This document shows, one piece after another, positions 7,097 to 7,552 of a DNA stretch of 64,000 nucleotides; within the stretch, counting starts at the first letter, position 1; every line of letters starts with the position of its first letter. Origin of the DNA: Escherichia phage W143; sequence record MZ189262.1. One strand, written 5' to 3'. The translations under genes and the position numbers were made by a program. Under the pieces are notes generated by a model, which saw nothing but the letters and a program-made list of their open reading frames with translations, did no database searches and was not told the DNA's origin.

Positions 7097-7552
7097 TTAT
7101 TTTAAATCATCTGCCCAATCGAGTTTAAGAGGCTCTTTGTATTCACGATCTAATACGACCGGAATTTGTACATCACCGCTAAATGATAAGGGCCCAACAT
7201 TATAAGACAATGTTATATGCGGTGTGTAATCATCAAAATCATGTGTAGCACCTAGTGCCCGCGCATACATGTGTCGACAGCGCAGATATTCAGAATCTAG
7301 CACAAGTACAAGAGTCGATCCATCTTGTGTTTTCCATACTTCTAAATGTCCAGAAGAAGCTACTTCAAAACTTCCACTTGATGGAACATACGGAACATTT
7401 ACTCTTGAATAACATATGGTCGAATGAATTTTTTCTCTAGGAACTGGATTAGGAACACGTAAAGAGCGCTGAAGTTCTTCCAGCGCATCAAGTGTTAATT
7501 CTGAAAACTTAGCTGCTACATAAAGACCCGTTGAAAAGTCTTTAAATTCCAT
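7097..7552 (-). CDS. 57B: gp57B-position protein with two H-x-T-x motifs (2H phosphoesterase-like)
   Basis: 151 aa; HSTI near residue 43 and HITL near residue 122; position between ip genes and 57A. Confidence 0.6.

What the first reader, a model, noticed from the sequence alone, without database searches (positions are those of the whole stretch)
7097..7552. gp57B-position protein has the two H-x-T-x motifs of 2H phosphoesterases, next to an RNA-repair-rich region
HSTI (around residue 43) and HITL (around residue 122) in a 151-aa protein match the spacing of LigT-like 2',3'-cyclic phosphodiesterase / 2'-5' RNA ligase enzymes. The window also encodes RNA ligase 2 (rnlB) and a tRNA cluster, and T4 is known for tRNA repair after host anticodon nuclease attack. 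A 2H enzyme could process 2',3'-cyclic phosphate ends generated by such nucleases.
Basis: partly seen in the sequence, partly recalled or inferred. Interest (0 to 1): 0.45.

Follow-up and report, generated by a model that had tools for sequence, protein, structure and literature searches.

The report
Known phage anti-CBASS nuclease Acb1
This gene is an exact copy of phage T4 gene 57B, already shown by experiment to be Acb1, a small enzyme that destroys the cyclic-nucleotide alarm signals of the bacterial CBASS defence, so it is not a tRNA-repair enzyme and the finding is already explained.

Summary
The protein is 100% identical over all 151 residues to T4 gene 57B. It matches Pfam PF23474 (Acb1) end to end (E 2.6e-60). 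An AlphaFold model superposes on the crystal structure of Erwinia phage FBB1 Acb1 (7T26) at 0.8 Å. Hobbs et al. 2022 (Nature, PMC9117128) showed that T4 57B is Acb1. [quoted passage not shown] It blocks CBASS effectors, and its loss gives T4 a more than 300-fold defect on CBASS hosts with no defect otherwise. The tRNA-repair reading is not supported. T4's repair enzymes (pseT, rnlA) lie outside the window, rnlB is 34 kb away, and the LigT-type Pfam model scores below its threshold. Verdict: already known, low interest. The "RNA ligase" label still attached to this gene in RefSeq T4 and PHROGs is outdated.

The parts
7097..7552 (-). acb1 (T4 gene 57B) coding sequence, 151 aa plus stop
   Evidence: ORF list. 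Pfam PF23474 Acb1, E 2.6e-60, 202.7 bits against a cutoff of 27, profile positions 1-144 of 144. 100% identical over 151 aa to T4 NP_049750.1. PDB 7T26/7T27 Acb1, E 4e-62.
7415..7426 (-). Catalytic motif 1, H43-S44-T45-I46 (T4 numbering H44/T46)
   Evidence: Sequence read directly. H invariant and T 28/29 in the alignment of 29 homologues. H44A abolishes activity in T4 Acb1 (PMC9117128).
7208..7219 (-). Catalytic motif 2, H112-I113-T114-L115 (T4 numbering H113/T115)
   Evidence: Sequence read directly. H and T invariant in 29/29 sequences. The H44A/H113A double mutant is catalytically dead.
7100..7123 (-). C-terminal segment, residues 144-151, corresponding to the substrate lid (residues 145-152 in the published structure), including W146 (T4 W147)
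   Evidence: The paper describes C-terminal residues 145-152 closing over bound 3'3'-cGAMP and W147 stacking on a base. pLDDT falls to 69 and then 46 over the last residues of the model, which fits a flexible lid. W conserved in 24/29 sequences.
7550..7554 (-). TAATG overlap: the 57A stop codon (7552-7554) shares one base with the acb1 start codon (7550-7552)
   Evidence: The window reads GAAGAATAATGGAA and T4 reads GAAGAATGATGGAA. T4's annotated start is one codon upstream, which explains the one-residue numbering offset. The overlap suggests co-transcription and translational coupling with 57A (inference).
7552..7794 (-). Context: gene 57A, tail-fibre assembly chaperone, immediately upstream in the same orientation
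   Evidence: Pfam GP57 PF17594, E 5.2e-51. Synteny with T4.
6377..7018 (-). Context: two internal-head-protein-like ORFs (6746-7018 and 6377-6685) immediately downstream, in the place of T4 ipI, an anti-restriction protein
   Evidence: They share the leader MKTFKEF(INEAA) with each other and with T4 ipI and little else. Close relatives annotate 'internal head protein (x2)' here. The paper notes that acb1 lies next to ipI in an anti-defence neighbourhood.

Best explanation
The gene encodes Acb1 (anti-CBASS protein 1), a compact 2H-fold phosphodiesterase made by a T4-like phage (Tequatrovirus). During infection it captures the cyclic di- and trinucleotide second messengers that host CBASS cyclases synthesise. 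These include 3'3'-cGAMP, cUA, cAAA and cAAG: signals that contain at least one AMP joined by 3'-5' bonds. Aromatic residues (Y11, W73, F106, W146 here) stack on the bases, and a C-terminal lid closes over the ligand. The adenosine is twisted so that its 2'-OH attacks the adjacent 3'-5' phosphodiester. The H43/T45/H112/T114 tetrad provides metal-independent acid-base catalysis. A 2',3'-cyclic phosphate intermediate forms and is then hydrolysed to a linear 3'-phosphate product (GpAp). With the signal destroyed, CBASS effectors (nucleases, phospholipases and others) are not activated and abortive infection is avoided.

Shown by experiment for the identical T4 sequence: the enzyme activity, the catalytic residues, effector inhibition and the in vivo phenotype. 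Shown here: sequence identity, family membership, fold, residue conservation and gene position. Inferred: that this particular phage expresses the gene and benefits from it in the same way.
For: - 100% identity over all 151 residues to T4 57B/Acb1.
- Pfam Acb1 PF23474: E 2.6e-60, full length.
- PDB Acb1 7T26/7T27: E 4e-62 by sequence. By structure, TM 0.88/0.97 and RMSD 0.8 Å for a model with pLDDT 89.8.
- The catalytic tetrad is invariant or nearly so, and the four aromatic contact positions stay aromatic in 24-29 of 29 homologues.
- Conserved position 57A-acb1-internal protein genes.
- PMC9117128: T4 57B was identified by activity-guided fractionation. [quoted passage not shown] The paper gives the HxT/HxT tetrad, the two-step metal-independent mechanism and the GpAp product. 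H44A/H113A is inactive. T4 Δacb1 lysate no longer cleaves cGAMP, the mutant has a more than 300-fold defect only on CBASS+ hosts, and Acb1 in trans rescues phage P1 by about 1.5 log.
- Independent later work treats Tevenvirinae acb1 as a cA3-degrading enzyme. Its activity triggers Panoptes defence, and escapers mutate acb1 (PMC13577387).
Against: Nothing in the data contradicts it. Two caveats apply. No experiment was done on this exact phage, whose genome is only about 90-97% identical to T4 across the window. Expression timing and promoter use here are inferred. NCBIfam has no model that matches, which means the library lacks one and is not evidence against membership.
Confidence: 0.97

Rival explanations
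1. One reading: a LigT/ThpR-like RNA 2',3'-cyclic phosphodiesterase or 2'-5' ligase that heals tRNA ends produced by host anticodon nucleases, working with the phage RNA ligases.
For: The protein has the 2H fold and two HxT motifs. The tRNA cluster is 1.4 kb away. The second step of the published reaction is hydrolysis of a 2',3'-cyclic phosphate, so some activity on RNA>p ends is chemically conceivable. I found no report that tested it.
Against: - The LigT-type Pfam model 2_5_RNA_ligase2 scores 13 bits against a cutoff of 27, E 0.11.
- LigT structures align at only 13-16% identity, TM 0.45-0.6 and RMSD 6-8 Å.
- The Acb1 product is a 3'-phosphate, which would still need PseT.
- The T4 record assigns tRNA repair to PseT (which includes a 2',3'-cyclic phosphodiesterase activity) plus RnlA, at 134-137 kb, outside the region covered by this window.
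- rnlB is 34 kb away.
- T4 Δacb1 grows normally without CBASS and is impaired specifically by CBASS.
Confidence: 0.03
2. Database label: an RNA ligase, as RefSeq T4 and PHROG 755 name it.
For: RefSeq NC_000866 calls 57B 'RNA ligase'. PHROG 755 is described as 'RNA ligase'. Many phage records repeat the label.
Against: The name is inherited from the historical '2'-5' RNA ligase' name of the 2H superfamily. No ligase domain is detected, and Pfam finds only Acb1 above its cutoff. The protein has no nucleotidyltransferase motif or ATP requirement. The demonstrated activity is phosphodiester cleavage. Newer records and UniRef name it anti-CBASS protein Acb1.
Confidence: 0.01
3. A decayed or inactive copy, as in some relatives that have lost acb1 to escape decoy-signal defences such as Panoptes.
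For: Natural disruption occurs. Bas43 carries a nonsense mutation. Phage BYEP02 carries a 77-bp tandem duplication that frameshifts the gene.
Against: The ORF here is intact, full length and identical in protein sequence to the active T4 enzyme, and every catalytic and contact residue is present.
Confidence: 0.01

Closest known systems
Phage T4 Acb1 (gene 57B, NP_049750.1)
   Same: Identical protein over 151 residues. Same neighbours (1, 57A upstream; internal-protein gene(s) and the tRNA cluster downstream). Same catalytic tetrad and aromatic contact residues.
   Different: The T4 annotation starts one codon earlier (ATGATGG in T4, ATAATGG here), so residue numbers are shifted by one, and the 57A stop is TAA instead of TGA. 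The downstream neighbours differ: two IP-like genes replace ipI, and trna.3 is absent.
Erwinia phage FBB1 Acb1 (PDB 7T26 apo, 7T27 with 3'3'-cGAMP product)
   Same: 66-68% identity. The model superposes at RMSD 0.8-1.1 Å, TM 0.88 by query and 0.94-0.97 by target. Same HxT/HxT tetrad.
   Different: Ordinary ortholog divergence. For example, the aromatic at T4 position 74 is F in FBB1 and W here.
Burkholderia phage BCSR5 phosphodiesterase / Acb1 (PDB 9Q2G, 9Q2Y)
   Same: Same family by the depositors' name. Distant sequence match (E 0.004) and fold match (TM about 0.66-0.69), with open and closed lid states.
   Different: Only 19-20% identity over the structural alignment, and it is 165 aa long.
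E. coli LigT/ThpR and other cellular 2H enzymes (CPDase, Usb1); viral 2',5'-phosphodiesterases (MHV ns2, rotavirus VP3)
   Same: 2H superfamily fold with two HxT/S motifs and metal-independent phosphoryl transfer involving 2',3'-cyclic phosphates. The viral members also destroy host immune oligonucleotide signals (2-5A), which is a functional analogy (PDB entry titles; otherwise my own knowledge).
   Different: 13-17% identity, TM 0.4-0.6, and below the Pfam threshold for the LigT-type model. Acb1 is smaller. It cuts 3'-5' bonds in cyclic oligonucleotides 3' of A and leaves a 3'-phosphate. From my own knowledge, not tested here: LigT/ThpR opens pre-existing 2',3'-cyclic ends to a 2'-phosphate, and its histidines are about 82 residues apart, against 69 here.
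Other viral signal-degrading or signal-sequestering proteins: Apyc1 (MBL fold), poxins, ring nucleases, Acb2 sponges
   Same: Same strategy: remove the host's nucleotide second messenger.
   Different: Unrelated folds and different substrates. Acb2 binds signals rather than cleaving them.

Membership tests
Acb1 (Pfam PF23474, anti-CBASS protein 1) | Full-length match to the family profile above the curated threshold | tested here: met
   202.7 bits against a cutoff of 27, E 2.6e-60, residues 8-149 on profile positions 1-144 of 144. All 77 full-length homologues found carry PF23474.
Acb1 (Pfam PF23474, anti-CBASS protein 1) | HxT/HxT catalytic tetrad (T4 H44, T46, H113, T115) | tested here: met
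   H43, T45, H112 and T114 are present. Conservation in 29 homologues: H 29/29, T 28/29, H 29/29, T 29/29.
Acb1 (Pfam PF23474, anti-CBASS protein 1) | Aromatic base-stacking residues (Y12, W74, F107, W147 in the paper) and a C-terminal lid | tested here: met
   Y11, W73, F106 and W146 are present, and these columns stay aromatic in 24-29 of 29 sequences. The C-terminal residues have low pLDDT, which fits a mobile lid.
Acb1 (Pfam PF23474, anti-CBASS protein 1) | Compact 2H fold superposable on solved Acb1 | tested here: met
   Model pLDDT 89.8, pTM 0.82. Foldseek against 7T26: E 5e-20, TM 0.88/0.97, RMSD 0.8 Å over 136 columns. I did not measure the His-His distance in the model directly.
Acb1 (Pfam PF23474, anti-CBASS protein 1) | Cleavage of 3'3'-cGAMP/cAAA and inhibition of CBASS | not testable with these tools
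   Shown experimentally for the identical T4 sequence (PMC9117128). Not assayed for this phage.
2H phosphoesterase superfamily | Two H-x-T/S-x motifs on a duplicated alpha/beta fold that forms one active-site cleft | tested here: met
   Motifs at residues 43 and 112. After the Acb1 entries, the top fold matches are LigT, TT0787, CPDase, Usb1, AKAP18, ns2 and VP3, all 2H proteins.
LigT/ThpR-type 2'-5' RNA ligase / RNA 2',3'-cyclic phosphodiesterase (Pfam PF13563 and relatives) | Match to the family profile above the curated threshold | tested here: not met
   13 bits against a cutoff of 27, E 0.11, and only residues 80-122 align. No LigT chain appears in the PDB sequence search at E≤1.
LigT/ThpR-type 2'-5' RNA ligase / RNA 2',3'-cyclic phosphodiesterase (Pfam PF13563 and relatives) | Acts on RNA ends carrying a 2',3'-cyclic phosphate (hydrolysis to a 2'-phosphate, or 2'-5' ligation) | not testable with these tools
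   The published Acb1 product is a 3'-phosphate from cleavage of a cyclic oligonucleotide. I found no test on RNA ends in the papers I read.
T4 tRNA repair pathway (PseT + RnlA against PrrC) | Genetic or physical linkage to, or a requirement alongside, pseT and rnlA | tested here: not met
   pseT and rnlA lie at T4 134.0-137.5 kb, and the window corresponds to T4 roughly 66.6-129.4 kb. rnlB is 34 kb from acb1. Δacb1 grows normally without CBASS. The prr-host phenotype has not been tested.

The most novel reading that the evidence does not exclude
Besides degrading CBASS signals, Acb1 might moonlight on RNA. It could open 2',3'-cyclic phosphate ends left by anticodon nucleases or other RNA-targeting defences, or cleave linear RNA 3' of adenosines. 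Nothing I ran excludes this, because the papers I read report only cyclic-oligonucleotide substrates. However, the closed, lid-covered pocket sized for di- and trinucleotides, the 3'-phosphate product and the CBASS-specific phenotype all argue against a meaningful role.
Probability: 0.04. Interest if true: 0.45.

Novelty: already known. Interest (0 to 1): 0.07.

Why it matters
As a discovery it does not matter. The gene's fold, mechanism, substrates and biological role were published in 2022 for an identical protein, and it has its own Pfam family and crystal structures.

It does have practical value. It confirms that this T4-like phage carries an intact broad-spectrum anti-CBASS nuclease. That predicts resistance to many CBASS systems, and possibly to cA3-signalling type III CRISPR systems. 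It also predicts sensitivity to decoy-signal guard systems such as Panoptes.

It also exposes a persistent annotation error. The labels 'RNA ligase' and 'hypothetical protein' in RefSeq T4, PHROG 755 and hundreds of phage records should read 'anti-CBASS protein Acb1'.

Tried and rejected
- LigT-type family membership: rejected. Pfam 2_5_RNA_ligase2 falls below its threshold, and LigT is only a distant fold relative.
- 'RNA-repair-rich neighbourhood': rejected. Mapping the window onto T4 put rnlB 34 kb away and pseT/rnlA outside the window.
- NCBIfam: no model matches, so it is uninformative.
- Pre-2022 literature placing 57B in the 2H superfamily: the full-text search for '2H phosphoesterase' plus '57B' returned only the 2022 Nature paper and a 2023 review. 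I therefore cannot document an earlier assignment from the held library.
- Decayed copy: rejected. The ORF is intact and identical to the active T4 protein.
- Promoter evidence: one TATAAATA late-promoter-like motif lies upstream at 8150-8157 (-), inside gene 1. The window has 21 such motifs against about 10 expected by chance, so a single site is weak evidence, and I did not pursue it.
- His-His distance: I could not measure it because the model's coordinates are not exposed. The 0.8 Å superposition on 7T26 serves as a proxy.
- Two failed script calls were file-path problems only.

Full report
**1. The observation**

- The window has an ORF from 7552 down to 7097 on the minus strand, with an ATG start and 151 aa.
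- Its translation contains HSTI at residues 43-46 and HITL at residues 112-115. On the DNA these are 7415-7426 and 7208-7219, read directly.
That is off by ten residues, and the true His-His spacing is 69.
- The motif pair is not a chance feature. Only 1.1% of 20,000 shuffles of the protein give two H-x-[TS]-hydrophobic motifs 60-100 residues apart.
- In an alignment of 29 homologues going down to 29% identity, H43, H112 and T114 are invariant and T45 is present in 28 of 29.
- The gene is in the 57B position. Directly upstream on the same strand are 57A (Pfam GP57, E 5e-51) and gene 1 dNMP kinase (E 5e-104).

**2. What the window is**

- The region 6000-9000 is 98.2% identical to Enterobacteria phage vB_EcoM_IME340, and hundreds of Tequatrovirus genomes match it.
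- The window aligns colinearly with T4 from 68.0 kb (the start of the T4 stretch compared; by extrapolation about 66.6 kb) to 129.4 kb, at about 90-97% identity with several indels. It is therefore a T4-like phage but not T4 itself.

**3. What the protein is**

- It matches Pfam PF23474 'Anti-CBASS protein Acb1' over the whole profile: 202.7 bits, cutoff 27, E 2.6e-60.
- The LigT-type model 2_5_RNA_ligase2 reaches only 13 bits against a cutoff of 27.
- Against PDB sequences, the best match is Acb1 of Erwinia phage FBB1 (7T26/7T27, E 4e-62). A Burkholderia phage Acb1 (9Q2G/9Q2Y) follows.
- The protein is 100% identical over all 151 residues to T4 gene 57B (NP_049750.1).
- T4's annotation begins one codon earlier because T4 reads ATGATGG at the 57A/57B junction. 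The window reads ATAATGG, which removes the first ATG and makes the 57A stop TAA, overlapping the acb1 ATG by one base. Published residue numbers therefore map as T4 number minus one.
- By tblastn, 498 phage records carry this protein at 99% identity or more, and 1470 records carry a homologue.
- 78 clusters were found in the large protein collection. All of them carry PF23474 except one short fragment.

**4. Structure**

- An AlphaFold2 model built from the 29-sequence alignment has mean pLDDT 89.8 and pTM 0.82. Only the first five residues and the C-terminal tail have low confidence.
- Foldseek against the PDB gives 7T26 (E 5e-20, TM 0.88 by query and 0.97 by target, RMSD 0.8 Å) and 7T27 (the product complex, RMSD 1.1 Å).
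- Next come the Burkholderia phage phosphodiesterase, then E. coli LigT, T. thermophilus TT0787, D. radiodurans CPDase, human Usb1, AKAP18, coronavirus ns2 and rotavirus VP3. All of these are 2H proteins, at TM 0.4-0.6 and 9-17% identity.
That test is not triggered: the fold is 2H and matches a crystal structure in which the two HxT motifs form the active site.

**5. Mechanism, from the literature on the identical protein**

Hobbs et al., Nature 2022 (PMC9117128), report the following.
- They purified the 3'3'-cGAMP-degrading activity from T4-infected cells and identified gene 57B as its source. They named the protein Acb1.
- The FBB1 structures show a compact 2H fold with a U-shaped pocket, and a C-terminal lid (residues 145-152) closes over the ligand.
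- Aromatic residues Y12, W74, F107 and W147 stack on the bases. The adenosine is rotated about 65 degrees so that its 2'-OH can attack the 3'-5' bond.
- The scissile phosphate sits over the H44/T46/H113/T115 tetrad.
- The reaction is metal-independent and has two steps. It passes through a cyclic phosphate and ends in linear GpAp with a 3'-phosphate.
- The H44A/H113A mutant is inactive.
- Acb1 blocks activation of the effectors Cap5, Cap4 and CapV in vitro.
- In trans it rescues phage P1 by about 1.5 log on a type III CBASS host.
- T4 Δacb1 lysate no longer cleaves cGAMP. The mutant grows normally without CBASS but has a more than 300-fold defect with active CBASS.

The four aromatic positions are present here as Y11, W73, F106 and W146, and they stay aromatic across the family.

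Later work shows the cost of carrying this enzyme. Panoptes systems keep a decoy cyclic nucleotide (cA3 in type II) and fire when a phage depletes it. Tevenvirinae phages with intact acb1 are restricted by these systems. Bas43, which has a nonsense mutation in acb1, and selected escapers with acb1 mutations are not restricted (PMC13577387).

**6.

- The fold assignment is correct. The proposed role, healing 2',3'-cyclic-phosphate tRNA ends, is not supported.
- The T4 record itself assigns that job to PseT (5'-kinase, 3'-phosphatase and 2',3'-cyclic phosphodiesterase) together with RnlA. They lie at 134.0-137.5 kb, outside the T4 interval that this window covers.
- rnlB is in the window, at 41439-42440 on the minus strand. 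That is 34 kb from acb1, with the whole baseplate, tail and head gene block in between.
- Only the eight-tRNA cluster (4383-5738) is nearby. In T4 the same arrangement holds, with no known functional link to 57B.
- The Acb1 product carries a 3'-phosphate, which would not make an end ready for ligation.
- An activity on RNA>p ends has not been excluded experimentally in what I could read, so I keep it as a low-probability side possibility.

**7. Comparison and novelty**

- This is an exact copy of a characterised protein, in its canonical genomic position, with its own Pfam family and solved structures. Novelty: already known.
- RefSeq T4 and PHROG 755 still call the gene 'RNA ligase', and most GenBank phage records say 'hypothetical protein'. 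Only some recent records and UniRef use 'anti-CBASS protein Acb1'.
- That outdated labelling probably explains why the gene looks unexplained to a reader working from memory of the T4 map.

**8. Verdict**

- Observation: partly confirmed. The motifs and the ORF are real. The position of motif 2 and the 'next to RNA repair' claim needed correction.
- Interpretation: partly supported. The 2H enzyme call is right. The tRNA-repair role is wrong, and the real target is cyclic oligonucleotide immune signals.
- Interest: low.

Noticed in passing
window 6377-6685 (-) and 6746-7018 (-): Two small ORFs immediately downstream of acb1 share the N-terminal leader MKTFKEFINEAA with each other, and MKTFKEF with T4 ipI, but little else. 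They look like polymorphic internal head proteins with a capsid-targeting leader, replacing T4's anti-restriction protein IPI. Neither has a Pfam match, and their targets are unknown.
   Followed up: partly
window about 6123-6135, compared with T4 72928-73328: T4 gene trna.3 has no counterpart here. trna.2 (5836-6123) is followed directly by a trna.4-like 60-aa ORF (6126-6308).
   Followed up: no
window 13347; 39712-40074; 44876-44896: The T4 homing-endonuclease genes segC (with 5.3), segD and segE are absent at the corresponding junctions. This is the usual presence/absence pattern of mobile endonucleases among T-even phages.
   Followed up: no
window 33101-33718 (+): An extra 205-aa ORF lies between the tail sheath gene 18 and tail tube gene 19, where T4 has only an 8-bp junction. 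It is cysteine-rich and has no Pfam match. It may be a mobile endonuclease-like insert.
   Followed up: partly
window 46398-47090 (+): An extra 230-aa ORF is inserted at the end of uvsW relative to T4. It has NUMOD3 motifs (E 1e-13) and an HNH-like N-terminus, so it is probably a homing endonuclease.
   Followed up: partly
window 55996-58053 (-) and 58057-60114 (-): Two full-length tandem Alt-like ADP-ribosyltransferase genes, 685 aa each and 41% identical, both matching Pfam ADPrib_exo_Tox. T4 has one alt gene plus the remnants alt.-1 and alt.-2 of an old duplication.
   Followed up: partly
L005 (Escherichia phage BYEP02, OR757454.1) 601-1133: The acb1 gene of this related phage carries a 77-bp direct tandem duplication that frameshifts it into a stop, and it is annotated as two ORFs. 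This is either a natural loss of acb1, as in the published Panoptes escapers and Bas43, or an assembly artefact.
   Followed up: partly
T4 record NC_000866 57B (L001 5953-6411); PHROG 755: The reference annotation and the PHROG family description still call this protein 'RNA ligase', although it is the experimentally defined Acb1.
   Followed up: yes
window 8150-8157 (-): A T4 late-promoter-like TATAAATA lies inside gene 1, about 360 nt upstream of 57A and 600 nt upstream of acb1. It would fit the reported onset of Acb1 activity at about 15 min. The window has 21 such motifs against about 10 expected by chance, so a single site is weak evidence.
   Followed up: no
window 5170-5241 (-): ARAGORN calls this tRNA 'Met (CAT)', while the syntenic T4 gene is annotated tRNA-Ile. 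This is the usual CAT-anticodon ambiguity and not a real difference.
   Followed up: no
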